Shown here piece after piece: positions 2,961 to 34,591 of a DNA stretch of 64,000 bases (its first letter is position 1; every line of letters begins with the position of its first letter). This DNA comes from Candidatus Staskawiczbacteria bacterium RIFCSPHIGHO2_01_FULL_39_25 (GTDB lineage: Bacteria; Patescibacteriota; Minisyncoccia; Minisyncoccales; Staskawiczbacteraceae). A program made the translations under genes and the position numbers. The stretch spans positions 199,227 through 263,226 of the forward strand of contig MHOO01000011.1 of assembly GCA_001820095.1 (NCBI GenBank), given 5' to 3'. Under the pieces are notes generated by a model. The model had not been told where the DNA came from. It saw only the letters and a list, made by a program, of their open reading frames with translations, and did no database searches.

Positions 2961-3314
2961 GTTATTTGCTCAATTTTTTAGGTGGCCGATAGCGCCACTT
3001 TTTGTTTGCAAAATTTTTTGAAAATAAGAAGCAGGAACGGCAAATCGAGTCCCAGCCGAAAGGTTCACGGATCGTGGCCGAACTCCAGCGACAGATTGTC
3101 ATGAGTGGCGAAGATCGCAATGCTCAGCAAATCGGTTGCCACAACGACAATTCGGGCGGCGGTCACAATGACAACTAGTTCGTTGTGGGTGCAAGCTCTT
3201 TACTGTCAAACAGGCCCCGGAACTTCATCGAAGTTTCGGGGCTATTCATTTATACAAAAACTAAAAGCGGCTCTTTAACTTGAATGGATTTTTTGTTAAT
3301 ATAATCAAATAAAT

Positions 3315-4148
3315 ATGAGCCAAGATTGGGAATCAAAATTAATGACCTTTGAAGAATATGCCAGAAAAAAACATGATCCAGTATATATTTTTGACGTAGA
3401 ATTTGGCAGTAAAAAAGTAACTTATTTTGGTGCCGAACATAACCACAATCCTGAAAGCCCGATGTTTGATCGCATTGAAGCAGAGTTTAAAAAAGCTGAT
3501 CCCCAGATTGTATTTGTGGAAGGAATGTATTTTTCGCAAGGTGGAAAACAAAAGGCGATCGAAAAATATAAAAATACCGATAGAGAATCGGTTATTAAAA
3601 ATCACGGAGAATCAGTGTATGTTTTCAGGTTAGCGGCTGACGCCGGGATTGAAGTTGATTCTCCAGAATCATCGCTTAGTGATGAAATTACTTTTTTACT
3701 GCAGCAAGAATTTTCAAAGGAACAAATTTTTTGCTTCTATGGGTATCGTCAAATCAATGGATTGCATCGCTTAGCAGATAAATCTAAATTTAATGAAGAA
3801 TTAACAAGATATATTTCAGTTTTTCAAAGGGATAGTCAGTGGAAAGATTTTGATTATTCGCCTGAACATTTGGAAAAAATTGGAAAATCAGTTTGGGGAG
3901 AAGTGCGCGGCGACGTTATGATTAACGATGGGTACCGAACAACACCCGTACCGCCAGAAGATAAGAAATTATTTACACTCATTAATCAGATCAACCAAGA
4001 GGTAACTCATTTTAGAGACTGCAATGTCGTACGGAGAGTTGTAGATGCCTTAAAAACCCACGATCGACTATTTATTATTTTTGGATCAACTCATGCTGTC
4101 ATGCAGGAACCAGCTTTGAGATATTTAGCAGAAAGTTATGATAAATAA
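3315..4148 (+). CDS. hypothetical protein (tentatively TraB/GumN-like)
   Basis: long ORF with AT-rich codon use; FGAEHNH near N-terminus and FGSTHAV near C-terminus resemble the TraB/GumN layout; weak. Confidence 0.45.
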   Translation: MSQDWESKLMTFEEYARKKHDPVYIFDVEFGSKKVTYFGAEHNHNPESPMFDRIEAEFKKADPQIVFVEGMYFSQGGKQKAIEKYKNTDRESVIKNHGESVYVFRLAADAGIEVDSPESSLSDEITFLLQQEFSKEQIFCFYGYRQINGLHRLADKSKFNEELTRYISVFQRDSQWKDFDYSPEHLEKIGKSVWGEVRGDVMINDGYRTTPVPPEDKKLFTLINQINQEVTHFRDCNVVRRVVDALKTHDRLFIIFGSTHAVMQEPALRYLAESYDK

Positions 4149-4149
4149 A

Positions 4150-4239
4150 ATGGCAAAATACGATTCAACAACCAAAGACAATAAATGCATTTTTTGTGAA
4201 ATAGTTTCGGGAAACATAAAAACTCCTGGGCTGTTCTGA
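4150..4239 (+). pseudogene. 5' fragment of a HIT-family (histidine triad) gene
   Basis: encodes MAKYDSTTKDNKCIFCEIVSGNIKTPGLF*, a typical HIT N-terminus (CIFC..V.G); stop TGA is the first 3 nt of the repeat at 4237. Confidence 0.6.
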
Positions 4240-4298
4240 TAAAGGTGGCTGACACCTTTACTCACCTTTACTCCTTTACTTTGACACCTTTACTCGAG
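4237..4298 (+). repeat. direct repeat copy 1 (tgataaaggtggctgacaccttta + cctttac words)
   Basis: 24 nt identical to 12411-12434, followed by similar cctttac/ctttaac word run; contains hairpin taaaggtg-gctga-caccttta. Confidence 0.7.
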
Positions 4299-4427
4299 AA
4301 AATAATATACCTTATAAACCGTTACGCGACGGGGAGGTAATTATCGTTAATGATAATAATTTGGAAATCATAAAATAAAAGAAGGGTGACAACTCGAGTA
4401 GTTATCACCCTTTTGGTTTGCAGGAAA

Positions 4428-5732
4428 TTACGGCGTCAGCCGGTTAGGGCCACGGTAGAGATACGTGGCTTCTCGGATGTTTTTGACACCCAGAAGCATC
4501 ATCAGTACCCGAGCCAGGCCGAGTCCGAAGCCTCCGTGTGGCGGACAGCCATAGCGGAAGCATTCCAAATAGTACTTGATTGGATCCAGGGTCAGGCCTT
4601 TCTCCTGGGCTTGCTGGACCAGAACATCGTACCTATGCTCACGCTGGGCACCCGTCGTCACTTCGAGTCCTTTCCAAAGAAGGTCGAAGCTCTTGGTGGC
4701 TTTCGGGCTATCAGCGTGGCGCATGTGGTAGAACGGACGCACGCTGATCGGGTAGTCGGTCACAAACACGAAGTCGTGGCCGGTTTTTTCTTTCATGTGA
4801 GCGCAGAGTTGGCGCTCGCCTTCGGGATCAAGGTCGCCCTTGGTCTCGGCGGAGAGCACGTGGCCGCGCTGTGCGAGAATCGCGTACGCTTCCTGCATCG
4901 AAAGACGCGGGAAAGGCAGCGTGGGAACTTCCACTTCGACGCCGAAGTACTTGGCCACGGCTTCACTGTGCTTGTCCTTGAGGGACTGGAGTACGTACTG
5001 GAGCCACCGCTCTTCGAACTTCATGACATCGTCGTGGGATTCGATCCAGGAAATCTCCACGTCCACACTAGTAAACTCCGTCGCGTGTCTGGACGTGAAT
5101 GACGGTTCAGCACGGAACACCGGTCCGATCTCAAACACCTTGTCGAAGCCCGCCGACATCGCCATCTGCTTGTAAAACTGAGGCGACTGGGCAAGGTACG
5201 CATTGGTCTCGAAGTATTTGACGGTGAAAAGCTCTGATCCCGATTCACTCGGACTTCCCATGAACTTGGGTGAGTGGATCTCGATGAAACCTTCTCTGGT
5301 CCAGAACTCGCGCATGGCGTGTTCCGCCGCCGTTTGGATCTGGAAGATCAGGTAGTTGGCGGGACGGCGCAGGTCTAGGAAGCGCCAGTCGAGGCGCAGG
5401 TCCAGGCCGGATTCTTCCGTGATAGGAAGAGTCGGAGGAGCCACGTTGATGACTTTGAGGTCATCGATGGCGATTTCCAGACCGCCGAGCTTAATCTTTT
5501 CGTTGGCGACCACGGTGCCGGTCAACTCCACTGCGGTTTCTGCTGTGAGGCTAGAGATGAGGACGCTCAGGGGATCCTCCTTCTTTTCACGCACGGTCTG
5601 GACGAGGCCAGTATGGTCGCGAACGACGATGAACTGGACCCGCTTCTGGTCGCGGAGGGTCTGAACCCATCCTTTGACGCAGACGGTGCTGCCGACGGCA
5701 CTTTTGAGAGTGCTGATCAAGGTACGTTCCAT
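4428..5732 (-). CDS. aspS: aspartyl-tRNA synthetase, archaeal/short type, GC-rich copy
   Basis: class II motifs FRAE, GLEVTTGAQREH, GGFGLGLARVLM; 434 aa without the bacterial insertion domain; G/C-rich third positions unlike host genes; RBS gaaaggaagg upstream. Confidence 0.9.
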   Translation of the reverse strand: MERTLISTLKSAVGSTVCVKGWVQTLRDQKRVQFIVVRDHTGLVQTVREKKEDPLSVLISSLTAETAVELTGTVVANEKIKLGGLEIAIDDLKVINVAPPTLPITEESGLDLRLDWRFLDLRRPANYLIFQIQTAAEHAMREFWTREGFIEIHSPKFMGSPSESGSELFTVKYFETNAYLAQSPQFYKQMAMSAGFDKVFEIGPVFRAEPSFTSRHATEFTSVDVEISWIESHDDVMKFEERWLQYVLQSLKDKHSEAVAKYFGVEVEVPTLPFPRLSMQEAYAILAQRGHVLSAETKGDLDPEGERQLCAHMKEKTGHDFVFVTDYPISVRPFYHMRHADSPKATKSFDLLWKGLEVTTGAQREHRYDVLVQQAQEKGLTLDPIKYYLECFRYGCPPHGGFGLGLARVLMMLLGVKNIREATYLYRGPNRLTP

Positions 5733-5869
5733 AAGAACACCTTCCTTTCAGGTTAGATGACTTGTTAAGGTTCTTATTTTACAGATCTAGACGATAAGTA
5801 AAATACTATGCTACTTTACCTCTTTATTATATATTTGTCAATATTTTATAAAACAAAAATTATGCTATC

Positions 5870-7195
5870 ATGAATGACATGGAAAAGATACATATTGATC
5901 AAATAAAAAATAATATCGGTAAGCAGATAACTATTACCGGATTCGTCCAAACGATCAGAGATCAGAAAAACATTAAGTTTTTTTTGATCCGTGATATTTC
6001 AGGAGTCATCCAGGTTGTCATTACCAAAGACAAGGAAGAGGCATTCAAAAATTCTTCCGGTTTGAGTTTGGAGTCAGTAGTAGAAATTACCGGTTTAGCT
6101 AAAGAAGAAAAACAAGCGCTAGGAGGTTTTGAAATAGCCGTAGAAAGCATTGCGACACTCTCTTTATCTGATCCAGAACTTCCAATCCCTGTTATCGAAA
6201 AAGGCCAACAAGAAGAAACCGACCAGTCGATTCGTCTTGATTGGCGATGGATTGATTTACGTAAAGAAAAAAACACTTTGGTATTTAAAGTGTGGACCGT
6301 TATGGAGCAGGCGTTCCGGGAATACTGGGTTAAGAACAACTATATTGAAATCCATTCTCCAAAACTCATTGCTACCGCAAGTGAATCTGGTTCAGAAGTA
6401 TTTGAAGTGAAATATTTTGAACGCAAAGCTTATCTTGCCCAATCTCCGCAATTTTACAAACAAATGGCCATGGCCGGCGGATTTGAAAAGGTATTTGAAG
6501 TAGGGCCGGTATTTCGAGCTGAACCATCGTTCACATCACGGCATGCTACAGAGTTTACCGGTTATGATACTGAAATTTCTTACGTAAAATCCCATTACGA
6601 TATCATGGAAGAAGAAGAAAAAGTAATTCAATATGCATTAGAAAAAGTAAAAGAAAAATATGGCGAAGAAATCTTGAAAGTATTCGGCAGGGAAGTAGTA
6701 GTTCCTAAAATTCCTTTTCCAAAGATTTCTATGAAAGAGACTAAAGAAATACTAGCGAAGATGAGAATCAAAAGCGAAAAGGAAGGCGATATTTCTCCAG
6801 AAGAAGAACGAAAAATCTGCGAATACGTTAAAGAAAAAGAAAACCACGAATTCGTATTTATCACTGAATATCCGGTAAGTGTGCGGCCGTTTTATCACAT
6901 GCATGATGAAGAAGACCCAAAAGTTACTAAGAGTTTTGATTTGTTATGGAACGGTCTTGAGGTAACTACGGGGGCGCAACGTGAACACAGATACGACGTG
7001 CTGGTTGCGCAGGCCAAAGAAAAAAAGATGGATATTGAACATTTGCAATTTTATCTTAACTTTTTTAAATATGGCTGTCCTCCGCATGGCGGTTATGGTA
7101 TGGGTCCCAACAGAATGATTATGCAGCTTTTGGGACTTGATAATGTTCGAGATGCGATGTTTGTATATCGCGGAGTTAATCGATTGACGCCGTAA
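5870..7195 (+). CDS. aspS: aspartyl-tRNA synthetase, archaeal/short type, AT-rich copy
   Basis: 441 aa with the same class II motifs; long blocks identical to the 4428-5732 product; host-like codon use. Confidence 0.9.
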   Translation: MNDMEKIHIDQIKNNIGKQITITGFVQTIRDQKNIKFFLIRDISGVIQVVITKDKEEAFKNSSGLSLESVVEITGLAKEEKQALGGFEIAVESIATLSLSDPELPIPVIEKGQQEETDQSIRLDWRWIDLRKEKNTLVFKVWTVMEQAFREYWVKNNYIEIHSPKLIATASESGSEVFEVKYFERKAYLAQSPQFYKQMAMAGGFEKVFEVGPVFRAEPSFTSRHATEFTGYDTEISYVKSHYDIMEEEEKVIQYALEKVKEKYGEEILKVFGREVVVPKIPFPKISMKETKEILAKMRIKSEKEGDISPEEERKICEYVKEKENHEFVFITEYPVSVRPFYHMHDEEDPKVTKSFDLLWNGLEVTTGAQREHRYDVLVAQAKEKKMDIEHLQFYLNFFKYGCPPHGGYGMGPNRMIMQLLGLDNVRDAMFVYRGVNRLTP

Positions 7196-7209
7196 AGATA
7201 TTTTGCGTA

Positions 7210-7251
7210 AAAAAATAGCTCGGGGTGAAATGATTCACTCCGAGCTTTATT
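7210..7251. terminator. bidirectional hairpin terminator between convergent genes
   Basis: agctcggggtga-aatgat-tcactccgagct flanked by an A-run and a T-run. Confidence 0.6.
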
Positions 7252-8304
7252 TTACGTCGGGGTTGCCAGATGATCAAGGAAATCGCAATAGGCTGCAGTC
7301 AATGGAGCCTCTTTACTACGTTCCCCGATAATCCGCCTTGCAATGCCTTGAATCCATGTCGCACTGTGCTTGTTATGAAGCCGGAAGGCTTCGCAAGCAA
7401 GAGTTGACAAGATGTCAGCCCAAACTGCCGCATATTCTCCCCAGAATTTGCTCATCTGGTCGAACATTGCGTTGGCTGAGTGTGCGCTTTTGCTTCTTAT
7501 GTCTGCTTCCTCCTGGACCAGCCTGAGCCTCAACGTTTCTGAGAACGACGAGATTGCAGGCATGGCGCAGGATTCAGCCGTTTCTCGCGAAAGTTTTTGA
7601 GCTTTGGCAATATTTTCACCTCTGATGTGCATTGACACCGCGGTGTGCCAATAATTGCCAAGCCTTAAACCTGTGCAAGCAGACATGCATTCCTGCAAAA
7701 GCGAGAACTCGAACACGTTGTAGGGCAACAGTTGTATTGCATCGTTCGCGCGCATAGCGACTGTTGTGTGCAACGTGTCACTTCGCGGCATGAAAGCGAT
7801 ATTGAGCGTGCATGGAATGTCTTGTGATTCCAAGCGCGCAAGATCACTTGCGTCATGGAGGTCGATTACCGCCCGCTTCGTGTCGGAACGAGTCGAAATG
7901 GTTTTTGAAGCCAAATCAAACTGGTTCTTTCCTGAAGCTCCTCCAAAAATCCTCATGCCGTATGAAGAACCTGGTATGGTGATACCGTCGTCTGAAAAAC
8001 AGCAGGCTGATTTGGAGTAGAACGCAATCGGCTCAAGCAGATTCGATCCGGATAGCATATAGATGAAGCGCGCTGCCGCAAGTCCTGGATTGAACAGGGG
8101 CAATGCGCTTTTGAATATGCGTTTTCGCGGATCAGTCAGACAGAGCTGGGCATTGAACACTTCCTGAATCGAGAAGTCCCGGTTCATAGAGTGTTCGCCC
8201 GATTGGTAAGTAATGCCATGCGCACTAATCCTGCCGATCATTTCGCGTATGACCGCATTCGTGTCGTCACCCATGACGACACCTACCGAATGTAGTGAGT
8301 CCAC
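7252..8304 (-). CDS. thymidylate synthase / dCMP-hydroxymethylase-fold protein with C-terminal extension
   Basis: IPCTLNIAFMPRSDTLHTTVAMRANDAIQLLPYNVFEFSLL aligns by eye with ThyA [37 protein letters not shown] (Pro-Cys nucleophile, R-x-x-D, LP-x-N); GTG start 1 nt after upstream stop; GC-rich. Confidence 0.7.
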   Translation of the reverse strand: MDSLHSVGVVMGDDTNAVIREMIGRISAHGITYQSGEHSMNRDFSIQEVFNAQLCLTDPRKRIFKSALPLFNPGLAAARFIYMLSGSNLLEPIAFYSKSACCFSDDGITIPGSSYGMRIFGGASGKNQFDLASKTISTRSDTKRAVIDLHDASDLARLESQDIPCTLNIAFMPRSDTLHTTVAMRANDAIQLLPYNVFEFSLLQECMSACTGLRLGNYWHTAVSMHIRGENIAKAQKLSRETAESCAMPAISSFSETLRLRLVQEEADIRSKSAHSANAMFDQMSKFWGEYAAVWADILSTLACEAFRLHNKHSATWIQGIARRIIGERSKEAPLTAAYCDFLDHLATPT

Positions 8305-8305
8305 A

Positions 8306-9856
8306 TCAAGTCCTCCTTTCTTGTCGGATGAATTCCGTCAGATCCTTCAGGTTTGCCGATGGCTGACAGAGTTGGTTGAGATCTTCGGTCCAGATGCTCA
8401 TCTGGTTTCCTATGATCGGATCAATCACTTCCGGATGAGAAGCCTCATCCTTTTCGACGAGCCGAAAGTGCTTTGCGGCTTGATACGCATTTGCCAAGTC
8501 GTTTTGTGGAATGCCGGTCAACTCGCGTACCACATGATCCGCAAACATGATTCCATGTTTTGCATAGTCCTGAAGCAGGCGCATTGTAGTGTACAGGCGC
8601 AGAGCGGGCGTTTCCATTGCCGAATATGCGACTTGGAATACAAAGTTGCGCATGTCCAGCAAAGAATCGATTCCGGGTTCCACTTCCCGAGCATAGCCAA
8701 GAAGAACATCAGTTGGGCGGGTAACTGCAGTAAGCTGTAGCACATCCCTAGAAATAGTTTCCCAGTAGCCTTTCCAGGAATTTATATGTTCCACCGGCTG
8801 CCAAGAATCGGGCGATGATGCGTTGACGATCATTCTTCCGTTTGCGGGAAGATAGACCGATAGCCTCCTTGAGTGGAATTGACGGGGAGTGTTGTAATTG
8901 GGAACTTGTCCCAATTTTGACCGCCAGTAGGTGTATCCTCGAAGGACGGTTTCGTAAAAATTGTGCCCTTCTCCGTGGGTGCCGCGCATAGAAAGGTTAA
9001 AGAAACTGTCGCCAATTTCTTCCACTTTCTTGACATCGCTCCACGAAGTTCCAGGCACATCCTGTTTCGACATTTTCTTGGCAAAGCCAAGAAAATAGGT
9101 TGGTTTGTAGATTACCGGAATTTCCATGTCTCCGGTAACCAGCCAGCGGGTGGGGAATGCGTCGATGATGGGCAGATTGATTACCGGATCAGAAGGATTC
9201 TTTTCCGGCAGCAATTCTGCTCCAAGTCTTTGCGCCAGTTGGATGTCCAGGTTTTGGTTCGGATCAAGGATAGTGCGAACGACGGGACGGATATTGATTC
9301 CGTCGTCGCTTCGTGCGACCGCATACCTGATTGCATGCAGCACATTCTCAACGGACACGTTGTGGAACGTGTCGTAGCTGATGCGCAGGATGAATGTTAA
9401 ATTCCGTCCTCGCATCTTGTTTCCGCGACGCATGGCGTCGATGAACCTGTCCAACATCCGTTCGGTGGCTTCCGCGCTTTCAGCGAAATAAACGCTGGTG
9501 ATGGTCACCACTTCGTGGATGTTTTCCAGATTTTCGACTGCGTAGCACATGGCATCCATGTTCTCATACGATTCTCCGCCGCCGGAAAATACCAGCAACT
9601 GAGCCTTGGCCTCGTTCATGATCTTCACGAAAATTCGCATCTGATCCATGGAGAGCCGAGGCGGAGAACCACCAAAAATCTTTTTTGCCATTGCCGCCGA
9701 AAAGAGGCAGTTTGGGCATGTCAGTGCGCATTGGTCGGCAGCGTTGACGACCATAACCGAAACTTCGAGATTTTCAGCAGACCCGATTTCCGGTACATGT
9801 CGCGCAAGATAGGCGCGCAGTAAATGGGCGTTGCGATCATCAAACAAAGCGTTCAT
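8306..9856 (-). CDS. radical SAM protein with ~300-aa uncharacterised C-terminal domain
   Basis: CxxxCxxC motif CALTCPNC, glycine-rich FSGGGES; GC-rich; aggag RBS. Confidence 0.75.
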   Translation of the reverse strand: MNALFDDRNAHLLRAYLARHVPEIGSAENLEVSVMVVNAADQCALTCPNCLFSAAMAKKIFGGSPPRLSMDQMRIFVKIMNEAKAQLLVFSGGGESYENMDAMCYAVENLENIHEVVTITSVYFAESAEATERMLDRFIDAMRRGNKMRGRNLTFILRISYDTFHNVSVENVLHAIRYAVARSDDGINIRPVVRTILDPNQNLDIQLAQRLGAELLPEKNPSDPVINLPIIDAFPTRWLVTGDMEIPVIYKPTYFLGFAKKMSKQDVPGTSWSDVKKVEEIGDSFFNLSMRGTHGEGHNFYETVLRGYTYWRSKLGQVPNYNTPRQFHSRRLSVYLPANGRMIVNASSPDSWQPVEHINSWKGYWETISRDVLQLTAVTRPTDVLLGYAREVEPGIDSLLDMRNFVFQVAYSAMETPALRLYTTMRLLQDYAKHGIMFADHVVRELTGIPQNDLANAYQAAKHFRLVEKDEASHPEVIDPIIGNQMSIWTEDLNQLCQPSANLKDLTEFIRQERRT

Positions 9857-9934
9857 CTTTTTCTCCTGGGTTTGAGTTCGGTGCTATATTCTCTCTCGAT
9901 AGAGAGCTTTGACAAGGAGCAATCTTTTGCGTAA

Positions 9935-9963
9935 ATAATAATATAGAATTATAAAAATGTCAA
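9935..9963 (-). promoter_or_regulatory. sigma70-like promoter for 8306-9856/7252-8304 unit
   Basis: minus strand TTGACA, 17 nt spacer, TATTAT in the AT-rich spacer. Confidence 0.5.
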
Positions 9964-9984
9964 CAATAAAAAAGATAATTTTAC

Positions 9985-10017
9985 CATAATAAAACCCCCG
10001 ATTTCTGGTCGAGGGTT
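9985..10017 (-). terminator. terminator after methyltransferase gene
   Basis: minus strand aaccctcga-ccagaaa-tcgggggtt hairpin followed by a T-rich tract. Confidence 0.5.
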
Positions 10018-10038
10018 ATGGCTGAAAAACAGCCTTTA

Positions 10039-10776
10039 TTACTTTGAGGCGCTGCAATGTTTGAAAATTGCGCGCACTGATCCATGGCGATGGTTTTCTT
10101 CGGAACCGGCATGGCTGTGAACGATGTCAGTTTCATCCCAGTGGAGCAGGCTCCAATTTTCCGGCCCGAATAGAGTTTTGATCCGTTCGGGGTTCATAAT
10201 GACTCCTTTCAGTTCCGGCTGGATGTCTGGAGCGGGGTATTTGTCTGTCAGGCTTTGCATGATCAGGTAACCGCTTTTGAGAACGATTTGCCTGATGGCA
10301 TCAATTACTTGATGTAGGACAGATTCTTCCTTGAACACATGCAGAAGGCCGTAACAGACTACGATGTCGAATTGCTCACGGTTGTGTTTCAGGAAGCTGA
10401 GCGCGTCATCTTTGACGAGCGCGATTCTTCCTTCTGGCAACAGTCCCGATTCTTCAAGTTTCACGGTAACATCAAGCAATGTTGCCATGGCAAGAGAATC
10501 TATTTCGACAGCGATAGCCCGTTTAACATCTCGACGGACAAATTCCATGATGTTTTTGCCCGTACCGGCACCCAGTTCCAGAACCGAAAATTCGGTCCAT
10601 GGCAAAGATGCCATCTGGTTGAAGAAATGAACCACTTCGCTTCCAGGCTTTAAGCCCCAGAAATCCAATCCATGGGAGCGATAGCCGTTCCTGTAGAGGC
10701 CGATGCCTTCGCCACTTCCTTTTTGAGGATGGGCGAGGACTTCTTGCATTTCTTCGACAGTGAAGAGTGGATTCAC
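10039..10776 (-). CDS. class I SAM-dependent methyltransferase
   Basis: motif I VLELGAGTGKN, acidic AVEID, post-I VVCYGLLH; GC-rich; 14 nt downstream of radical SAM gene. Confidence 0.8.
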   Translation of the reverse strand: MNPLFTVEEMQEVLAHPQKGSGEGIGLYRNGYRSHGLDFWGLKPGSEVVHFFNQMASLPWTEFSVLELGAGTGKNIMEFVRRDVKRAIAVEIDSLAMATLLDVTVKLEESGLLPEGRIALVKDDALSFLKHNREQFDIVVCYGLLHVFKEESVLHQVIDAIRQIVLKSGYLIMQSLTDKYPAPDIQPELKGVIMNPERIKTLFGPENWSLLHWDETDIVHSHAGSEENHRHGSVRAIFKHCSASK

Positions 10777-10790
10777 TTTGACCCCCTTTC

Positions 10791-11786
10791 TTAATAAGTT
10801 TTTTGGGCGTTTGCGGTTATGGTGAACAGACCGTTGACTGACTGGAGTCGGTTGATGATAGCTTTGGGTTGATCTGTCAGGATATTACTCATGAACACAT
10901 CCTTGGTTCCCTGAGTGACTGTCACGACACCGGTAGGTTGCACGAGGAGTGCCGGACTTGCGTAGAAGTCGGCAAGGCTGTGGATGGTCACCCGGATTTT
11001 GTCTCTGAACAGGCGCAGTGCTTCTTCTACGATTGTCCTGTAAGTGTCATCCGAAACACTCATTCGGTCGGCGTTCAATCCTGAAGTACGTCCGACTTCC
11101 CGCCCGAAGAACTGTGTCAGCTTCCAGTTGTCCACGCCAAGGTCTACCATCATGTGGCCCAGTTGGACAATCTTGTTGATGTCTGAGGTCACTGAGGTGA
11201 TCGTGGTACCGACCTTTACTTTGAAGCCGTACTTTTTCAGTTCGGGGATTAGGGCAATCGTTTTGGTGAAGGCAGCATCGTCTCCCCTGATTTCGCTGTT
11301 GGACTTGGCATCCGGGCCGTCCAGTGAAAGCGAGAACCACTTCACATTTCTGTTTGCACAGAATGCCAGCATGGAATTTGTGACATGCATGCCCGTGGTT
11401 TGCACGATCGTTTCCCGGTTGCGCCGAGAAATTTCATCTACCAGTAGGAGAACGTCGTTGCGGTGAGATTCCGGGTCAGCCCTGACGAAAATCTCGCCAC
11501 CAGTGAGTTGAATCCTGTCCGTCAAAATGGCAAGACTGTTGATGATTTTTGCCATTTGTTCGGTGGAGGCGTCCCTGGTGAGTCCCTGGAACTCCTCTTC
11601 CGCATAGCAGTGCGGACACTGCAGATGACAGCGTCCCGTCACGTAGAGGGAAACAAAACCGATGCGAGCAGCCAGGGCAGGCAGTTTTTCATACTGTTCG
11701 AATATTTCAGCGAGTGCTTGGGCGCGTTTGTCGCCCAATTCCTGGCGGGAAGTAACGTACTTCCTGCTAACCTGTGGTAGTTCCAT
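10791..11786 (-). CDS. radical SAM protein, viperin-like (tentative) / MoaA-like fold
   Basis: CHLQCPHC cluster motif, LTGGEIF, SLSLDG; C-terminal NWKLTQFF...SVSDDTY parallels viperin RWKVFQCL...SDEEF by eye; GC-rich. Confidence 0.7.
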   Translation of the reverse strand: MELPQVSRKYVTSRQELGDKRAQALAEIFEQYEKLPALAARIGFVSLYVTGRCHLQCPHCYAEEEFQGLTRDASTEQMAKIINSLAILTDRIQLTGGEIFVRADPESHRNDVLLLVDEISRRNRETIVQTTGMHVTNSMLAFCANRNVKWFSLSLDGPDAKSNSEIRGDDAAFTKTIALIPELKKYGFKVKVGTTITSVTSDINKIVQLGHMMVDLGVDNWKLTQFFGREVGRTSGLNADRMSVSDDTYRTIVEEALRLFRDKIRVTIHSLADFYASPALLVQPTGVVTVTQGTKDVFMSNILTDQPKAIINRLQSVNGLFTITANAQKTY

Positions 11787-11964
11787 GGCATCTTCCTTTC
11801 GTTGATGGGGTTGATTGTAAAAGAGCCGTTCATGCTCTCTAGTACTAGTGTATCAGTGTGCTAATATAATATCACTTATAATTACTTTTGTAAAGACTTT
11901 TGACCATTGAAAATTATTGCATTTTGGTTAGAAAAAAGGCAAAATGGATTTATTAGAAATTAAT

Positions 11965-12378
11965 ATGAATATTTTTGAAAGGGTTAAAAAATTGAATTTT
12001 CCACTAGGAGAATATGTTGTCATCGGAGCTGGTATCCTTGAAGCTATTGGGATAAGGAATACTCATGATGTCGATATTATTGTGGCGCCACAATTGTTTG
12101 AGAAGCTTAGAGAATCTAAAATCTATAAAGAAGAAATAAAGTGGGGCAAAATATTTTTAATTGGAGATGAAATTGAAATTGGTACCAAATTAGATTGGGA
12201 AAACTATTCAACTACTATTGAAGAAGCAATTAATACTGCAGCTATTATTAACGGTGTGCCGTTTTTAAACCTTGAAGAAACTATAAAATTTAAAAGGGCG
12301 ATGGGCAGGAAAAAAGACTTTAAAGATATTGAATTGATAGAAAGTTATTTAAAAAATTATGATAAAAATCTACTTTAA
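11965..12378 (+). CDS. hypothetical protein, nucleotidyltransferase-fold-like
   Basis: VVIGAGILEAIGIRNTHDVDIIV resembles a minimal NTase G-x-motif plus DxD; ATG 11965 preferred over 11944 because the fragment at 13263 starts at the equivalent residue. Confidence 0.45.
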   Translation: MNIFERVKKLNFPLGEYVVIGAGILEAIGIRNTHDVDIIVAPQLFEKLRESKIYKEEIKWGKIFLIGDEIEIGTKLDWENYSTTIEEAINTAAIINGVPFLNLEETIKFKRAMGRKKDFKDIELIESYLKNYDKNLL

Positions 12379-12396
12379 TTTTAATAAGTATAGAGT

Positions 12397-12475: not shown

Positions 12476-12504
12476 TAAAATTGTAATATAATGCACATAA
12501 ATTT

Positions 12505-21328: not shown

Positions 21329-22381
<1,053 letters not shown>

Positions 22382-22592
22382 AGGTAAACCCTTATGTTCT
22401 CAAGAGAGAATGTAGGGGTTTTTATATTTTATCTAATATCTTTTAAGAAAATTTACCAAATAAAATTCAAAATATAAGTGAACAAAATAAACTAAAAACT
22501 TGCAATAATTTAAAAGTATGTTACTATAATAAAAAAAGACGCCTATAGCAGGCTTGCCGAAAACTCAGGCCTTTGACAAAAGGAGCATTGGA

Positions 22593-23863: not shown

Positions 23864-24006
23864 GAGACGAAAAAGATGTGATCAAGCGCCTGGTTGCCCA
23901 ATATGAACGGCTTTTTGGGAAAGCTTCCCACGAAGTGTGTAAGGAAGCCGTGCAAGACCTTATCGCCGAAATGGCGCCAGACCAGATACCATCTAGTTTG
24001 AAGTAG
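23864..24006 (+). pseudogene. GC-richer 3' fragment of the 17854-18132 gene family
   Basis: encodes DEKDVIKRLVAQYERLFGKASHEVCKEAVQDLIAEMAPDQIPSSLK*, almost the same peptide as the full gene but with synonymous G/C changes; own terminator at 24036-24057. Confidence 0.7.
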
Positions 24007-24159: not shown

Positions 24160-24348
24160 ATGCTGACCGAATTGGAGAAAGAACGACTATGTCGTCTTCC
24201 TCTCGATCCTCAAATGTTTGATAAAGAGGATTGGAATGATCTTCAGTTTCGCCTTATGCGCGTTCTCGAAGAAGAGGAGATTTTTTCTTCTTATCAGGAA
24301 TTGTCATTAGTTCCAACTCCACCTCAAAATGGTGAGAATGTTCCATAA
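24160..24348 (+). CDS. small acidic hypothetical protein
   Basis: aaggagg RBS 7 nt before ATG 24160; in frame with ORF 24127..24348. Confidence 0.4.
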   Translation: MLTELEKERLCRLPLDPQMFDKEDWNDLQFRLMRVLEEEEIFSSYQELSLVPTPPQNGENVP

Positions 24349-24444: not shown

Positions 24445-24945
24445 ATGACCGTGTATCGTGGGATCAAGATTACCAACAGCTGGGTTGCCACTTCATCGGG
24501 ACCTGGTGGTGGTACTCCCTCGAGGGCGAGTTCGCTCAAGGGTTGCAAGAAAGCGACTCTGGAAGAAGTGTTGGAGTACCAAAACTCCAACGTCGTTCTG
24601 CGAATTCAGAGGGAACTTGGGGTTGAAGTGTCCAAGGCACAGGAATTCTTCACTGATTTGAAGCGCTTCCTGTGGCTGGTTGCCAACTCCTCGGTTGAAT
24701 GTCTCGTTCCTAGTCCTGTCGTCGATGAGGCGTGGCATTCTTTTGTACTCTTCACGCAAGAGTACACCGACTTCTGCGATCGCTACTTCGGTCGCTTCAT
24801 CCATCATTCTCCCGTGCATCAGGGTGAAGCTCGGATGACCGCGGAAGATCTGCAGCCAACCATTGACGCAGTTCAAGCCGCATTCGGCGGGATCCCGTCA
24901 ACCAACTGGCACTACGTGCCGGTCAAGGAATTGCTTGCTGCATAG
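24445..24945 (+). CDS. hypothetical protein with DExWH...HH motif, paralog of 23224-23724
   Basis: DEAWHSFVLFTQEYTDFCDRYFGRFIHHSPV; aaaggag RBS before ATG 24445; terminator hairpin at 24958-24999. Confidence 0.55.
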   Translation: MTVYRGIKITNSWVATSSGPGGGTPSRASSLKGCKKATLEEVLEYQNSNVVLRIQRELGVEVSKAQEFFTDLKRFLWLVANSSVECLVPSPVVDEAWHSFVLFTQEYTDFCDRYFGRFIHHSPVHQGEARMTAEDLQPTIDAVQAAFGGIPSTNWHYVPVKELLAA

Positions 24946-26165: not shown

Positions 26166-26328
26166 TATATTTTTCTAAAGAAGCTTATTTTTATATTTTA
26201 ATTTTAAATCGCCCCGAGACTTTATACAAGTCTCGAGTTTGAAATAATGATAAAACAATTTAAAGATAATAATCAGTTCAAATGCTTTGTATTATTTACT
26301 TTTTCCCCATTTGAATTATGATAAGTCT

Positions 26329-32612: not shown

Positions 32613-33164
32613 ATGAAAAAACAAATCGAAATTGAACATCGTGCGCGCTTCTCGAAAGAAGAGCGTGACCAGTTGCTATCTTTCCTACAAGAGAACGGCA
32701 AGGACATTGGGGAAGACGATAAGAACGTCTATTTCTTTACCCTTCCCGATAAGCTCTTGAAGGTAACGGATAATATCTCCAAAAACACCGCCAAAATCAC
32801 CGGTAAAATGGGTAGAATTGGTGAAGGCAGTGGATTCGAAGAGATAGAGTTTCCTATTGAGAGAACGGACGTGTTGAAGGCGGTCGAACTCTTTAAAAAG
32901 TTCGGTTTCACTAATGTACACGATTCGTTCCAAAGTCGTCATAATTTCGAGTACAAAGATGTAGAAATTGCCCTCAAGTACAGTGAAATGTGGGGGTATC
33001 ATGCTGAATTTGAGATCGTGATTGATGACGAAACGAAAAAGGGTGTAGCCGACCAAAAGATTATGAGTGTTGCCAAAGAACTTGGTGTGAGGCTCATGAC
33101 CGAAGAAGAACTCAAAGTGTTTATCCGGCAGAAGGAAATCGAGATTAAGTCTGCTCGTTCATAG
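32613..33164 (+). CDS. CYTH-domain protein (CyaB/ThTPase-like)
   Basis: N-terminal IEIEHRARF ExExK-type signature, 183 aa; intermediate GC. Confidence 0.55.
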   Translation: MKKQIEIEHRARFSKEERDQLLSFLQENGKDIGEDDKNVYFFTLPDKLLKVTDNISKNTAKITGKMGRIGEGSGFEEIEFPIERTDVLKAVELFKKFGFTNVHDSFQSRHNFEYKDVEIALKYSEMWGYHAEFEIVIDDETKKGVADQKIMSVAKELGVRLMTEEELKVFIRQKEIEIKSARS

Positions 33165-33269
33165 CCGCATCGTTTCGATTAAACAGAATGATGTGGCTTT
33201 TTTTTGCAAAGAAAAAGCCCTGTCCAGTTGCGATAACTAGACAGGGCCGTCGTCCAGATTAGACGATTG

Positions 33270-34196
33270 TTAGAGCTTGAGCGGCTGCAGCCGATCCCGC
33301 ACCACGTCCTGGTGAATAAGATCGGGAAGCGCCACTCCTTCGACGACCACGTTACGCGCCGCGCACTCTTCCATCGTATCCATCCGACACTTGTCGAAAA
33401 GGGCGATGGCCTCGCGACCGAATCGAATCGCCTGCTCGTCGTTGCCTGCCTGCTTGTGAAGCATGGCAAGGACATAAGCGTACTCGGCGGCGTTGCGAGG
33501 ATCCACTTCGTGTAACGAATTCAGGGTCTGTTCCAGAACTGTGTACTGCATGATGTCACCTCCTTTGGTTTGGTTCTCGGTGAATTCTCCGAGAACGAAA
33601 TGCATAAAATCATCCGTCCTCTGCCATACCACCAGTTCAGCGGGGCTGAACCAATTGGCAACTTCTTGCTCGGCTTCCTCGGTCGTGCCAGAGGCATGAA
33701 CAAGATTCTTGCAGGCGCTTCCCACCACGTTTGCCAAGTCTGGCGCGTTGATGGAAAAGTCTCCACGAATCGTACCCGGCCCTGCCTTGTATGGCAAGGT
33801 GTGTCCGATGAGCTTTCGTACCGTATCAACGGCATGAATGCCTTCGAGTACCATGACCATCACCGGACCGAGCGTCAAGTAGCGGTAGTTCCACTCCTTG
33901 ATTTTCTGCCCGATCTCGAGCGGGTCAGCTGTACCGAGAATCTCGACGGGATCAATCCTATACTCCTGATACGTCTCGAGAGTCTTCTCGCCCATTCCCC
34001 GAATCCAGTCTTCGGACTTGGGGAAATGACCGTCCAGCAGCTTTCTGGTCGGAAAGACCAACTTGCATGCCACGATCTTGAGACCGGCCTGCTCGAAGCG
34101 CTGACAGATAATCCCGATGAGACCCCGCATGACTGCGTCTGGCTTGATGAGTACTAACGTTTTTTCACCAAGCATTTGTTGCAGACGTTCGTGCAT
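33270..34196 (-). CDS. nucleoside diphosphate kinase-like protein with internal insertion and ~100-aa helical C-terminal extension
   Basis: LVLIKPDAVMRGLIGIICQRFEQAGLKIVACKL, GPGTIRGDFS, catalytic His context NLVHASGTTEEAEQEVANWF; GC-rich. Confidence 0.75.
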   Translation of the reverse strand: MHERLQQMLGEKTLVLIKPDAVMRGLIGIICQRFEQAGLKIVACKLVFPTRKLLDGHFPKSEDWIRGMGEKTLETYQEYRIDPVEILGTADPLEIGQKIKEWNYRYLTLGPVMVMVLEGIHAVDTVRKLIGHTLPYKAGPGTIRGDFSINAPDLANVVGSACKNLVHASGTTEEAEQEVANWFSPAELVVWQRTDDFMHFVLGEFTENQTKGGDIMQYTVLEQTLNSLHEVDPRNAAEYAYVLAMLHKQAGNDEQAIRFGREAIALFDKCRMDTMEECAARNVVVEGVALPDLIHQDVVRDRLQPLKL

Positions 34197-34538
34197 TTAA
34201 GACACTTCCTTTCCAAAAATGTTTTTGCTGAATTCTCTGTAAGCATAGATTGATCCTTCCAGAATTACCACAAGGTCAGCGATCTTTGCGACAGCTTGTT
34301 TTTCATCCCACGATACCCAGATCTACTGATAGTGTTGATCCTTCTAGACCACGAAGGAATAGACCGGATGGTTTGTTTTTCCGTCAACTGACAGAACGAA
34401 CGAGTGTCCGTTTTGCAGTTGAGCAACCAAATCCGTCCATGCCCTTCTTTGGTATTGGGCAAATTGCCGCAGGACAGAACTTTTTGTGCAATCCTCACGA
34501 ATAAAATCCTTTGTAAAAAGAACTAAGGGAGCTAGCAC
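34197..34538 (-). pseudogene. upstream ORF translationally coupled to the NDK-like gene, interrupted by two in-frame TAG codons
   Basis: one frame reads through to TAA-ATG junction with the NDK start; TAG at 34344-34346 and 34323-34325; no frameshift. Confidence 0.4.
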
Positions 34539-34562
34539 TATGCCAACTTTACCTTTGATGGT

Positions 34563-34591
34563 AGTATATACTAACAAGCTTTATTTGTCAA
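34563..34591 (-). promoter_or_regulatory. sigma70-like promoter for the 34538-33270 unit
   Basis: minus strand TTGACA, 17 nt spacer, TATACT. Confidence 0.5.

What the first reader, a model, noticed from the sequence alone, without database searches (positions are those of the whole stretch)
3040..34591. GC-rich coding blocks scattered in an AT-rich genome, each wired to AT-rich promoters and terminators, with a nucleotide-metabolism bias
Seen: the following blocks are clearly GC-richer by eye than all surrounding genes. They are 3040-3250 (non-coding), 4386-5740, 7200-11830, about 21380-22381, 22560-23730, 23864-24006, 24100-24960 and 33180-34560, with 32613-33164 intermediate. Their flanks still carry host-style AT-rich spacers with TTGACA/TATAAT-type promoters and hairpin terminators. 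Some terminators are shared with AT-rich neighbours (for example 7210-7251). Products are enriched for nucleotide or aminoacyl chemistry: two aaRS, a TS-fold enzyme, two radical SAM proteins, a P-loop kinase-like protein, an NDK fusion and a CYTH protein. Inference: repeated acquisition from a related higher-GC donor. The GC-rich copy of a host gene fragment at 23864-24006 supports a related donor. The dispersed genes may cooperate (NTP supply, modification, resistance).
Basis: partly seen in the sequence, partly recalled or inferred. Interest (0 to 1): 0.55.

Follow-up and report, generated by a model that had tools for sequence, protein, structure and literature searches.

The report
Foreign GC-rich genes; AspRS-linked nucleotide-modifying module
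The GC-rich genes are real, horizontally acquired cassettes in an AT-rich ultra-small (CPR) bacterium, and the largest is a rare module of four nucleotide-modifying enzyme genes that lies beside aspartyl-tRNA synthetase genes in nearly every informative locus, as expected for a gene set making a synthetase-directed compound.

Summary
Twelve genes between 4.4 and 34.2 kb average GC 0.50 and GC3 0.55, against 0.34 and 0.29 for 28 neighbouring genes (p = 3e-6). Their spacers are AT-rich and carry promoter-like and terminator-like sites. Assembly chimerism is excluded: each junction recurs in 14-19 contigs from independent assemblies.

The organism is a Candidatus Staskawiczbacteria (CPR). The "one related donor" idea is not supported. 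GC3 ranges from 0.40 to 0.72, the genes have different phylogenetic affinities, and the 23864-24005 fragment is not GC-enriched over its parent.

The main result concerns 4398-12016. It encodes a viperin-like radical SAM enzyme, a methyltransferase, an EpeE-like radical SAM enzyme, a MilA-like pyrimidine C5-hydroxymethylase and a GC-rich archaeal-type AspRS. The host-type aspS is embedded among them. The long radical SAM family is tiny (22 proteins in 5.8 billion). Its gene lies next to one to three AspRS genes in nearly every informative locus, from CPR to 70%-GC actinobacterial-type contigs.

Best reading: a nucleotide-derived product directed at, or dependent on, AspRS, with the extra AspRS as immunity. 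That function is inferred. I saw no evidence that the TrpRS and NDK blocks cooperate with this module; their conservation elsewhere was not examined.

The parts
4398..12016 (.). 7.6-kb mosaic block: GC-rich AspRS, host-type aspS and the four-enzyme module. It is shared as a unit with a second Staskawiczbacteria-like genome.
   Evidence: L114 matches window 4398-12016 at 86% nucleotide identity, with different flanks. Other genes shared by the two genomes are 67-70% identical at nucleotide level, apart from one at 84%; dS 0.31-0.91 and dN/dS 0.02-0.13 across the six genes.
4428..5732 (-). GC-rich archaeal-type non-discriminating AspRS (434 aa), a xenologous extra copy.
   Evidence: GC .571, GC3 .717. 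NF003483 scores 495 bits against a cutoff of 353. It is 54% identical to the neighbouring aspS. Nearest relatives are Peribacteria at 71% and Chloroflexi/Actinobacteria-type sequences at 60-66%.
5870..7195 (+). Host-composition AspRS (441 aa), the lineage's housekeeping type, embedded between GC-rich genes.
   Evidence: GC .384. NF003483 scores 511 bits. The 120 listed relatives are 70-96% identical, and the named ones are all Patescibacteria, Minisyncoccia or Sungbacteria.
7217..7246 (.). Hairpin terminator shared by the convergent aspS(+) and the TS-like gene(-).
   Evidence: 13-bp stem with 7 GC pairs, flanked by an A run and a T run.
7252..8304 (-). MilA-like thymidylate-synthase-fold enzyme, a predicted ribonucleotide pyrimidine C5-(hydroxy)methylase. 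The start may be at 8274.
   Evidence: Best PDB match is the CMP 5-hydroxymethylase MilA (5b6d/5jnh), E = 5e-28 over residues 35-265. True thymidylate synthases reach only E = 2e-6. C155, K133, A176 and H216 are kept. D186 is N, E68 is R and Y218 is R.
8306..9856 (-). Long radical SAM enzyme (516 aa, CX3CX2C at C43/C47/C50) with a family-specific C-terminal half.
   Evidence: motif. Family size: 22 proteins among 5.8e9 and about 15 full-length representatives among 1.84e9. AF2 model: pLDDT 84, pTM .88. Best fold match is EpeE/YydG-type radical SAM epimerase 8ai6, E = 7e-8, TM .66-.69 on the target.
9935..10017 (-). Spacer holding a terminator (10017-9993) after the methyltransferase and a promoter-like site (9963-9935, TTGACA-17-TATTAT) before the long radical SAM gene.
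   Evidence: Spacer GC is .341.
10039..10776 (-). Class I SAM-dependent methyltransferase (245 aa).
   Evidence: Methyltransf_25/11 and a weak spermidine-synthase-like match. Conserved in every module locus.
10791..11786 (-). Viperin-like radical SAM enzyme (331 aa, CX3CX2C at C53/C57/C60).
   Evidence: Pfam Radical_SAM. PADLOC pVip models match at E = 1.7e-18 over residues 45-313. NCBIfam viperin model scores 56 bits against a cutoff of 180.
3027..3250 (+). GC-rich non-coding segment ending in a strong hairpin (3213-3243). It starts exactly at a strain-variable breakpoint.
   Evidence: GC .526. Hairpin of 14 pairs. Strain contig L012 is identical to the window only from 3027 onward, and L013 only from 4158 onward. 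No Rfam or Pfam match.
21341..22381 (+). GC-rich TrpRS (346 aa) of a widely transferred type.
   Evidence: GC .479. TIGR00233 scores 251 bits. The listed relatives are 77-93% identical and span Patescibacteria, Berkelbacteria and Geobacteraceae. Elsewhere this type heads a four-gene operon.
22554..23168 (+). P-loop kinase-like protein (AAA_33), only mildly GC-enriched.
   Evidence: GC .441, GC3 .395. Pfam.
23224..23724 (-). UCP032817-like protein (166 aa), strongly GC-rich.
   Evidence: GC .555, GC3 .713. PF27765 (weak).
23864..24005 (+). Fragment (the 3' 142 nt) of small ORF X, a repeat at a cassette junction.
   Evidence: 89% identical to 17990-18131. GC .486 against .472 for the parent copy.
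24160..24348 (+). Small ORF (62 aa) behind a strong promoter-like site (24059-24086).
   Evidence: No family match.
24445..24945 (+). Second UCP032817-like protein, GC-rich.
   Evidence: GC .535. PF27765. It shares the DExWH...HH motif with 23224-23724.
32613..33164 (+). CYTH-domain protein with intermediate GC.
   Evidence: GC .424, GC3 .500. PF01928 and TIGR00318, the latter below its cutoff.
33270..34196 (-). Nucleoside-diphosphate kinase with a C-terminal TPR-like extension, GC-rich.
   Evidence: GC .545, GC3 .654. NDK at 9e-33. The NLVHAS active-site histidine is present. The junction is seen in 14 contigs.
17854..18132 (+). Small ORF X (92 aa), the parent of the repeated fragments that punctuate cassette boundaries at 18828-18881, about 19006-19030, 19789-19858 and 23864-24005.
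   Evidence: The stretch 18064-18283 matches 19791-20010 at 92%. It holds the 3' end of X, a terminator and the 5' end of the TehB-like gene.

Best explanation
The window comes from a Candidatus Staskawiczbacteria (CPR/Patescibacteria) genome. Its first 34 kb is a plastic accessory region into which foreign cassettes of different origin have been inserted. These cassettes kept their GC-rich coding composition, but they are expressed from AT-rich, host-style promoters and terminators.

The largest island (4398-12016) is one functional unit. It encodes a viperin-like radical SAM enzyme, a SAM methyltransferase, an EpeE-like radical SAM enzyme and a MilA-like ribonucleotide pyrimidine C5-hydroxymethylase. 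With them sit an extra GC-rich AspRS and the host-type aspS.

The four enzymes most likely convert a uridine or cytidine nucleotide into a modified nucleoside or nucleotide product whose target or partner is aspartyl-tRNA synthetase. The extra AspRS would then act as an insensitive copy that protects the producer. Less likely, it supplies Asp-tRNA for the pathway.

Shown:
- the composition difference;
- the absence of chimerism;
- the foreign phylogenetic affinities;
- purifying selection on the six genes;
- the conserved module-AspRS linkage;
- the enzyme family assignments.

Inferred:
- the chemistry;
- that AspRS is the target;
- that the extra copy gives immunity.
For: Composition.

Not chimeric: the same junctions occur in 14-19 contigs from NCBI, ENA, JGI and Logan assemblies of different samples.

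Organism: (source name for P0001) and the record MHPB01000013.

Foreign origin:
- The GC-rich AspRS is 60-71% identical to Peribacteria, Chloroflexi and Actinobacteria-type enzymes but 54% identical to its neighbour.
- The AT-rich copy has 120 listed relatives at 70-96% identity, and every named one is a Patescibacteria-group sequence.

Module linkage:
- The long radical SAM family is tiny.
- In 6 of 7 contexts fetched by exact-protein look-up, one to three archaeal-type AspRS genes lie directly beside the module. The seventh has a bacterial-type AspRS 7 kb away.
- Of 22 further metagenomic loci, 13 hold an AspRS-like gene (one a weak match), and in 8 of them it is directly adjacent. Of the 9 without one, 8 are short contigs or end close to the module.
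- Three contigs of about 70% GC, actinobacterial by their neighbouring genes, carry the co-directional operon rSAM-MT-rSAM-TS-like-AspRS. This is the gene order of the window's minus strand.
- Several AspRS clades (D1-D3) were seen only beside this module.

Enzymology: MilA match and residue pattern, pVip-like radical SAM enzyme, EpeE-like fold.

Selection: all six genes are under purifying selection, dN/dS 0.02-0.13.

Precedent: albomycin is a tRNA-synthetase-inhibiting nucleoside whose gene cluster holds two radical SAM enzymes (PMC12691670). That antibiotic gene clusters often carry a resistant copy of their aaRS target is from my own knowledge.
Against: - No transporter, precursor peptide, ligase or other tailoring gene is conserved with the module.
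- Both window AspRS copies keep the same active-site motifs, so nothing marks one as insensitive.
- The host-type aspS sits inside the island and is conserved there in a second genome. A simple "island plus immunity gene" model does not predict this.
- The GC-rich AspRS (GC3 .72) differs in composition from the four enzyme genes (GC3 .52-.61). It may therefore have arrived separately.
- Three loci (L112, L116, L118) show only one AspRS near the module, so a second housekeeping copy there is only assumed.
- I could not inventory the rest of the genome for other aspS, asnS or gatCAB genes.
- The TS-like enzyme lacks two residues that are conserved in all characterised relatives (E68, Y218), so its chemistry may differ.
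Confidence: 0.6

Rival explanations
1. The module uses AspRS as a biosynthetic partner rather than a target. Asp-tRNA(Asp/Asn) made by the linked synthetase donates aspartate to the modified nucleotide, or the aspartyl moiety is modified while on the tRNA. The extra copies secure substrate supply.
For: The linked AspRS genes keep their anticodon-binding OB domain and all catalytic motifs. In L118, L126, L129 and L130 the AspRS follows the long radical SAM gene directly, in some overlapping it, as in an operon. The long radical SAM enzyme resembles an amino-acid C-alpha epimerase.
Against: No aminoacyl-tRNA-dependent transferase (Fem/GNAT, cyclodipeptide-synthase or PacB-like) is conserved in the module. 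Up to three AspRS genes in one locus (L110) are hard to explain by substrate supply alone.
Confidence: 0.2
2. The module modifies tRNA(Asp)/tRNA(Asn), or another RNA or DNA pyrimidine, and the linked AspRS variants are adapted to the modified tRNA.
For: There is a conserved linkage of nucleotide-modifying enzymes with a tRNA-binding enzyme, and the divergent AspRS clades co-vary with the module.
Against: From my own knowledge and PMC5175136, the characterised TS-fold enzymes act on free mononucleotides, not on polynucleotides. The MilA-type ribose and phosphate pocket residues are kept. No tRNA gene lies in the window.
Confidence: 0.1
3. The GC-rich blocks are native genes whose composition is kept high by selection (expression level, amino-acid content or mRNA structure), not by transfer.
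For: GC3 of the block genes has stayed .52-.75 in two genomes although dS between the copies is 0.3-0.9. GC-rich coding regions sit among perfectly host-like spacers.
Against: Phylogenetic affinities are foreign. The long radical SAM family, and with it the module, has a very sparse distribution. The same module is not GC-enriched in L117 or L118 and is only slightly enriched in L112. The block is far more similar between the two genomes (86% nt) than most other shared genes, such as PilB at 75% aa with saturated dS.
Confidence: 0.07
4. The composition switches are binning or assembly chimeras of a MAG.
For: None beyond the abrupt composition changes themselves.
Against: Identical junctions occur on contigs of 9-253 kb from different samples, assemblers and archives, for all three groups of blocks. 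Strain variants are 99.85-100% identical across the junctions.
Confidence: 0.01

Closest known systems
Gene clusters for aaRS-inhibiting nucleoside antibiotics that carry a second copy of the target synthetase. Albomycin is the nearest case (SerRS inhibitor, two radical SAM enzymes, a methyltransferase, an extra SerRS). The same logic applies to mupirocin/IleRS and indolmycin/TrpRS. Sources: PMC12691670 and my own knowledge.
   Same: Nucleotide-modifying radical SAM enzymes and a methyltransferase are clustered with an additional, divergent or xenologous copy of one aminoacyl-tRNA synthetase. A housekeeping-type copy is also present.
   Different: The linked enzyme here is AspRS, not SerRS. 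No siderophore-peptide, transporter or PLP enzymes are present. The radical SAM enzymes are not AbmM or AbmJ orthologues (AbmM is only a marginal fold match, E = 1.4e-2). The hosts are CPR bacteria with sub-megabase genomes as well as actinobacterial-type organisms. No product is known.
MilA (mildiomycin) and BcmA (bacimethrin) CMP 5-hydroxymethylases.
   Same: MilA is the best solved-structure match (E = 5e-28). The nucleophile C155, H216 and the ribose-preference pair K133/A176 are conserved.
   Different: Position 186 is Asn (uracil-type) rather than the Asp of cytosine enzymes in 12 of 12 family members. The catalytic E68 is Arg in 12 of 12 and Y218 is Arg in 10 of 12. No MilB-like N-glycosidase lies nearby.
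Microcin C and related peptidyl-nucleotide antibiotics, whose processed form is an aspartyl-adenylate or aspartyl-cytidylate mimic that inhibits AspRS (my own knowledge; review PMC12250964 listed).
   Same: It is the only well-known natural-product class aimed at AspRS, and it is nucleotide-based.
   Different: The module has no MccB/ThiF-type adenylyltransferase, no precursor peptide gene and no MccC/E/F-type immunity genes. In those systems immunity does not rely on an extra AspRS.
Prokaryotic viperins (pVip), which make 3'-deoxy-3',4'-didehydro-NTP chain terminators.
   Same: The 331-aa radical SAM enzyme aligns with the pVip models over almost their full length (E = 1.7e-18).
   Different: It scores 56 bits against the NCBIfam viperin cutoff of 180. 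Its context is not a defence island, and none of the other module genes matches PADLOC apart from a generic methyltransferase domain.
Two-AspRS genomes such as Deinococcus and Thermus, which have a bacterial discriminating AspRS1 plus an archaeal-type non-discriminating AspRS2 for tRNA-dependent asparagine synthesis (my own knowledge).
   Same: Two AspRS genes occur in one genome, and one was acquired horizontally.
   Different: Here both copies are the archaeal non-discriminating type. They are adjacent and tied to a conserved enzyme module. Some loci have three copies.
Horizontally acquired islands in Patescibacteria (general phenomenon; for example PMC12455944, listed).
   Same: Compositionally atypical accessory genes lie in strain-variable regions of streamlined CPR genomes.
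   Different: No integrase, tRNA target or phage genes are seen in this window. Cassette junctions are marked by fragments of a small ORF instead.

Membership tests
Archaeal-type non-discriminating AspRS (aspartate--tRNA(Asn) ligase) | Full-length match to the NCBIfam equivalog NF003483/TIGR00458 above the curated cutoff, with an N-terminal OB anticodon-binding domain and a class IIb core. | tested here: met
   The GC-rich copy scores 495 and 419 bits; the AT-rich copy scores 511 and 407 bits. Cutoffs are 353 and 368. PF01336 and PF00152 are present in both.
Archaeal-type non-discriminating AspRS (aspartate--tRNA(Asn) ligase) | Charges both tRNA(Asp) and tRNA(Asn), with GatCAB present in the genome. 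| not testable with these tools
   This needs biochemistry and the whole genome. Only 64 kb plus flanks could be read.
MilA/BcmA-type CMP 5-hydroxymethylase | TS fold with the nucleophilic Cys and the ribose-preference residues Lys133 and Ala176. | tested here: met
   E = 5e-28 to 5b6d/5jnh. C155 and A176 are kept in 12 of 12 members and K133 in 10 of 12. Residue roles come from PMC5175136.
MilA/BcmA-type CMP 5-hydroxymethylase | Cytosine-specifying Asp186 and the catalytic Glu68 and Tyr218. | tested here: not met
   N186 in 12 of 12, R68 in 12 of 12 and R218 in 10 of 12. The enzyme is therefore not filed as a CMP hydroxymethylase. It is a distinct subfamily, probably directed at uracil.
Prokaryotic viperin (pVip) | Score above the curated family threshold, plus a defence-island or kinase context. 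| tested here: not met
   NF038283 scores 56 bits against a cutoff of 180. PADLOC pVip gives E = 1.7e-18, which shows homology only.
YydG/EpeE radical SAM peptide epimerase | Family-level sequence match and an adjacent precursor peptide gene. | tested here: not met
   TIGR04078 scores 22 bits against a cutoff of 300. There is fold similarity only (TM .66-.69 on the target, 13-14% identity). No small conserved ORF is present in the module.
Biosynthetic gene cluster with a duplicated, resistant target (aaRS type) | A second copy of the target gene is physically linked to the biosynthetic genes, and the linkage is conserved across taxa. | tested here: met
   An AspRS lies directly beside the module in 6 of the 7 exact-protein contexts, the window included (the seventh has one 7 kb away), and within 6 kb in 13 of 22 metagenomic loci, directly adjacent in 8.
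Biosynthetic gene cluster with a duplicated, resistant target (aaRS type) | The product inhibits the housekeeping enzyme, and the linked copy is insensitive. | not testable with these tools
   A motif comparison shows no diagnostic change between the two window copies, so that test was inconclusive. Proof needs enzymology.
Biosynthetic gene cluster with a duplicated, resistant target (aaRS type) | An export or uptake-related gene in the cluster. | tested here: not met
   No transporter is conserved next to the module.
Classical integrative genomic island | An integrase or recombinase gene, insertion at a tRNA gene, and flanking direct repeats. | tested here: not met
   No tRNA gene and no integrase domain among the ORFs scanned. 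Direct repeats exist only as fragments of ORF X between 17.8 and 24 kb. One related locus, L116, lies next to type IV secretion genes.

The most novel reading that the evidence does not exclude
CPR/Patescibacteria and some Actinobacteria share a previously undescribed, compact five-gene pathway. In it a uridylate-directed MilA-like enzyme, a viperin-like radical SAM enzyme, an EpeE-like radical SAM enzyme and a methyltransferase would build a new aspartyl-nucleotide-mimicking inhibitor of AspRS. The producer would survive through one to three dedicated AspRS xenologues. In episymbiotic CPR cells this would be a small-molecule weapon or control lever acting on the translation of the host or of competitors.
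Probability: 0.3. Interest if true: 0.8.

Novelty: new variant of a known kind. Interest (0 to 1): 0.6.

Why it matters
GC-rich foreign genes in an AT-rich genome are ordinary in themselves. The linkage found by following them is not.

A very rare four-enzyme nucleotide-modifying module sits next to aspartyl-tRNA synthetase genes in nearly every informative locus. This holds from sub-megabase CPR genomes to high-GC actinobacterial-type contigs, and some loci carry up to three AspRS copies.

CPR bacteria are thought to have very little secondary metabolism. A conserved, horizontally spreading pathway aimed at or built around an essential translation enzyme would change that view for this lineage.

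If the reading is right, it would also provide:
- a candidate new class of AspRS-directed natural product;
- a new subfamily of thymidylate-synthase-fold enzymes (ribose-type pocket, uracil-type specificity residue, two Arg replacements of catalytic residues).

Each step can be tested directly with the five-gene operon.

Tried and rejected
- **Phage origin.** The mostly one-strand gene layout suggested a phage. I rejected this because the window holds PilB/T2SS-F pilus genes, no PHROG matches were found for the unknown ORFs, and the viral collection has no close relatives. The module has none there, AspRS reaches only 46-49% and TrpRS 66%.
- **RNA elements.** Rfam at gathering thresholds over the whole window found nothing. 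E-value scans of 2900-4450 and 34150-34650 found nothing significant. No tRNA genes were found.
- **Defence system.** Only the viperin-like and a generic methyltransferase domain match PADLOC.
- **The "GC-rich copy of a host gene" as donor evidence.** Rejected. It is one of several intragenomic fragments of ORF X and is not GC-enriched over its parent.
- **L110's 92-aa ORF as a homologue of ORF X.** No similarity.
- **Short ORF remnants.** Those at 4150-4236, 3002-3175 and 19697-19795 gave no Pfam match. My impression that 4150-4236 resembles a HIT-protein N-terminus rests on memory only.
- **Campbell-type integration through aspS homology.** Rejected. The two AspRS genes are divergent in orientation and neither is chimeric.
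- **Active-site comparison of AspRS clades for a resistance signature.** Inconclusive.
- **Sequence search of the PDB with the two radical SAM proteins.** Only marginal hits.

Full report
**Observation.** The window has 39.4% GC overall. Twelve genes between 4.4 and 34.2 kb average GC .497 and GC3 .551. The other 28 genes of the first 34.6 kb average .344 +/- .046 and .288 +/- .071 (Mann-Whitney p = 2.6e-6). No gene in the more uniform 34.8-64 kb part exceeds GC3 .471. The P-loop gene at 22554-23168 is only mildly enriched (GC3 .395). Spacers beside the GC-rich genes have GC .20-.45.

Strong promoter-like sites lie upstream of the transcription units: 5841-5813, 9963-9935, 11894-11866, 23821-23794, 24059-24086 and 34591-34563. 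Hairpin terminators follow them, including the hairpin at 7217-7246 that is shared with the AT-rich neighbour. Site counts exceed shuffled sequence only modestly. The GC-rich genes are also strongly biased to the minus strand: 7 of 12, against 2 of 57 other genes (p = 2e-5).

**Not an artefact.** Exact-protein look-ups for four genes returned 14-19 contigs each. These come from NCBI MAGs, ENA MEGAHIT assemblies, JGI and Logan, from different samples, and carry the same GC-rich/AT-rich junctions. Strain contigs are 99.85-100% identical to the window across the switches. The organism is a Candidatus Staskawiczbacteria bacterium from the Rifle aquifer data set (GCA_001820275.1, contig MHPB01000013).

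**What the genes are.** Both 4428-5732(-) and its AT-rich neighbour 5870-7195(+) are archaeal-type non-discriminating AspRS, well above the NCBIfam equivalog cutoffs. They are 54% identical to each other. The AT-rich copy has 120 listed relatives at 70-96% identity. Every one that carries a source name is from Patescibacteria, Minisyncoccia or Sungbacteria, so it is the lineage's own housekeeping type.

The GC-rich copy is closer to a Peribacteria MAG (71%) and to Bacillota, Chloroflexi and Solirubrobacterales MAGs (60-66%) than to its neighbour. It nests in that broad clade in neighbour-joining trees.

The remaining genes were assigned as follows.
- The TrpRS at 21341-22381 belongs to a type that is 77-93% identical across Patescibacteria, Berkelbacteria, Paceibacterota and a Geobacteraceae MAG.
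- 33270-34196 is a nucleoside-diphosphate kinase with its active-site His and a TPR-like tail.
- 23224-23724 and 24445-24945 are two UCP032817-like proteins.
- 32613-33164 is a CYTH protein.

**The module.** Genes 7252-11786(-) encode four enzymes.
- **Viperin-like radical SAM enzyme (331 aa).** The PADLOC pVip models match at E = 1.7e-18 over residues 45-313. The score is below the NCBIfam viperin cutoff.
- **Class I methyltransferase**.
- **Long radical SAM enzyme (516 aa)** with a CX3CX2C motif.
- **Thymidylate-synthase-fold protein.** Its best solved relative is the CMP 5-hydroxymethylase MilA of mildiomycin biosynthesis (E = 5e-28). True thymidylate synthases reach only about 1e-6.

I mapped the residues defined in the MilA structure paper (PMC5175136) onto 12 family members. 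The nucleophile C155, H216 and A176 are kept in all twelve, and K133, which with A176 forms the ribose-preference pair, in ten. Position 186 is Asn (uracil-type) in all 12, not the Asp of cytosine enzymes. E68 is Arg in all 12 and Y218 is Arg in 10. This is therefore a distinct subfamily, best predicted to alkylate C5 of a ribo-uridylate-like substrate.

An AlphaFold model of the 516-aa enzyme (pLDDT 84, pTM .88) is most similar to the EpeE/YydG radical SAM epimerase. Viperin-like enzymes and DesII follow.

**The linkage.** The 516-aa family is tiny. A word-indexed search found 22 proteins among 5.8 billion. An exhaustive profile search found about 15 full-length representatives among 1.84 billion.

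- In 6 of the 7 contexts fetched by exact-protein look-up, the window included, one to three archaeal-type AspRS genes lie directly beside the module. Examples are L110, a complete 692-kb Paceibacterota genome with three AspRS genes; L112; L114; L116, which is next to type IV secretion genes; and L118, where the AspRS is the last gene of a co-directional operon.
- The seventh context has a bacterial-type AspRS 7 kb away.
- A metagenome scan added 22 loci, which I annotated with local profiles. Thirteen hold an AspRS-like gene (one, in L122, a weak match). In eight it is directly adjacent, and in the other five it lies 1-6 kb away. Of the nine without one, six are short contigs, two end close to the module, and only L139 has room on both sides.
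- Three contigs of about 70% GC, actinobacterial by their neighbouring genes, carry rSAM-MT-rSAM-TS-like-AspRS as one operon. This is exactly the gene order of the window's minus strand if the embedded AT-rich aspS is ignored.
- The linked AspRS genes fall into the standard clade, the Patescibacteria clade and at least three divergent clades that I saw only beside this module.

Chance adjacency of a single-copy gene within a few kilobases is a few percent per locus. The association is therefore functional even after allowing for relatedness among the loci.

**History of the block.** A second Staskawiczbacteria-like genome (L114) shares window 4398-12016 as one block at 86% nucleotide identity, in different flanks. 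Apart from one gene at 84%, the other shared genes are only 67-70% identical at nucleotide level; PilB is 75% identical at protein level with saturated dS. Within the block, dS is 0.31-0.91 and dN/dS is 0.02-0.13, so all six genes are functional.

The same mosaic of GC-rich genes around a host-composition aspS is present in L114. The module is also GC-richer than its flanks in L116, and slightly so in L110 and L112. It is not in L117 or L118. High GC is therefore not intrinsic to these genes.

Strain contigs diverge from the window exactly at 3027, the start of the GC-rich non-coding piece, and at 4158. This marks the left side of the block as a recombination hot spot.

**Other structure in the region.** Between 17.8 and 24 kb, fragments of a 92-aa ORF (17854-18132) recur at cassette boundaries. 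One is a 220-nt duplicate that holds the ORF's 3' end, a terminator and the 5' end of the next gene. The fragment at 23864-24005 is one of these repeats. It is not GC-enriched (.486 against .472), so it does not point to a related donor. The first 34 kb also holds unusually AT-rich genes (GC .22-.30), which makes the region mosaic in both directions.

**Interpretation.** The foreign origin of the blocks is well supported. A single related donor is not supported, because composition and affinities differ between blocks.

For function, the conserved unit is the module plus AspRS. Its enzyme set points to chemistry on a free pyrimidine nucleotide: a MilA-like C5 enzyme with a mononucleotide pocket, a viperin-like enzyme, a methyltransferase and an epimerase-like radical SAM enzyme. 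The invariable AspRS partner, often present in extra and divergent copies, matches the pattern of antibiotic gene clusters that carry an insensitive copy of their aaRS target. Albomycin is a nucleoside precedent with radical SAM enzymes (PMC12691670; further details from my own knowledge). Microcin C shows that AspRS can be targeted by nucleotide mimics (my own knowledge).

I therefore favour a nucleotide-derived product directed at AspRS, with the extra AspRS as immunity (about 0.4 on its own). Next comes an Asp-tRNA-dependent biosynthetic role (about 0.2), then tRNA or nucleic-acid modification (about 0.1).

Points against the favoured reading:
- no transporter or further tailoring genes are conserved with the module;
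- no diagnostic active-site change separates the two copies;
- the position of the host-type aspS inside the island is unexplained;
- some loci show only one AspRS near the module.

In six other loci with this module, the called genes near it include no TrpRS, P-loop, UCP032817-like, CYTH or NDK gene, and I did not examine their conservation further. The TrpRS type does, in other genomes, head its own four-gene operon with an APH-like kinase, a nucleotidyltransferase-like protein and a second, archaeal/eukaryotic-type TrpRS paralogue.

**Novelty.** Full-text searches found no description of this module. The general phenomenon, horizontal transfer into CPR genomes, is known. The AspRS-linked module appears to be a new variant of the "biosynthetic cluster with duplicated target" theme, and it includes a new TS-fold subfamily.

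Noticed in passing
window 17854-18132; 18828-18881; about 19006-19030; 19789-19858; 18064-18283 = 19791-20010; 23864-24005: A 92-aa ORF of unknown family has at least four partial copies at cassette boundaries. One is a 220-nt duplicate (92%) that carries its 3' end, a terminator and the first codons of the TehB-like gene. This looks like the footprint of repeated cassette insertion or recombination at one site.
   Followed up: partly
window, all genes: GC-rich genes are 7 of 12 on the minus strand, against 2 of 57 for the remaining genes (Fisher p = 2e-5). Cumulative GC skew rises throughout the window, so the foreign genes mostly oppose the prevailing gene orientation, which that skew suggests is the leading strand.
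   Followed up: partly
L119:6001-9992 and L120:6001-10006 (relatives of window 21341-22381): In a Berkelbacteria and a Patescibacteria genome, the same TrpRS type (83% identical) heads a conserved operon. The operon is TrpRS, an APH-like kinase (362 aa), a nucleotidyltransferase-like protein (266 aa) and an archaeal/eukaryotic-type TrpRS paralogue (348 aa). In L120 the operon is a GC-rich island (.48-.50 against .32-.39). It may be a second aaRS-linked system.
   Followed up: partly
window 34197-34555 (-): A 359-nt leader lies between a strong promoter-like site (34591-34563) and the NDK start codon. It has no convincing ORF. It folds better than shuffled sequence (z = -2.9) and has no Rfam match.
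   Followed up: partly
window 3027-3250 and 4150-4239: A GC-rich non-coding piece with a 14-bp hairpin starts exactly where strain contig L012 diverges. A 29-codon ORF remnant starts near where strain contig L013 diverges (4158). Both look like scars at a strain-variable junction. Neither has a family match.
   Followed up: partly
window 43700-43858 and 51816-51973: Inverted repeats of about 150 nt (83-88% complementary) lie 8 kb apart and flank a set of genes in the otherwise uniform second half of the window.
   Followed up: no
window 11944-13690, 18307-18780, 26287-26919: Several genes are unusually AT-rich even for this genome (GC .22-.30, GC3 .13-.27). The accessory region is therefore mosaic in both directions, not only towards high GC.
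   Followed up: no
L110:10647-15228 (CP129473.1): A complete 692-kb Paceibacterota genome carries three AspRS-like genes in a row inside the module. One has host-like composition, one is GC-rich and of the standard type, and one is GC-rich and only 25-30% identical to all the others. A GC-rich 92-aa ORF lies with them.
   Followed up: partly
P0275: One representative of the long radical SAM family is a 1879-aa fusion protein, with the family domain at residues 453-952. Its other domains might reveal the substrate.
   Followed up: no
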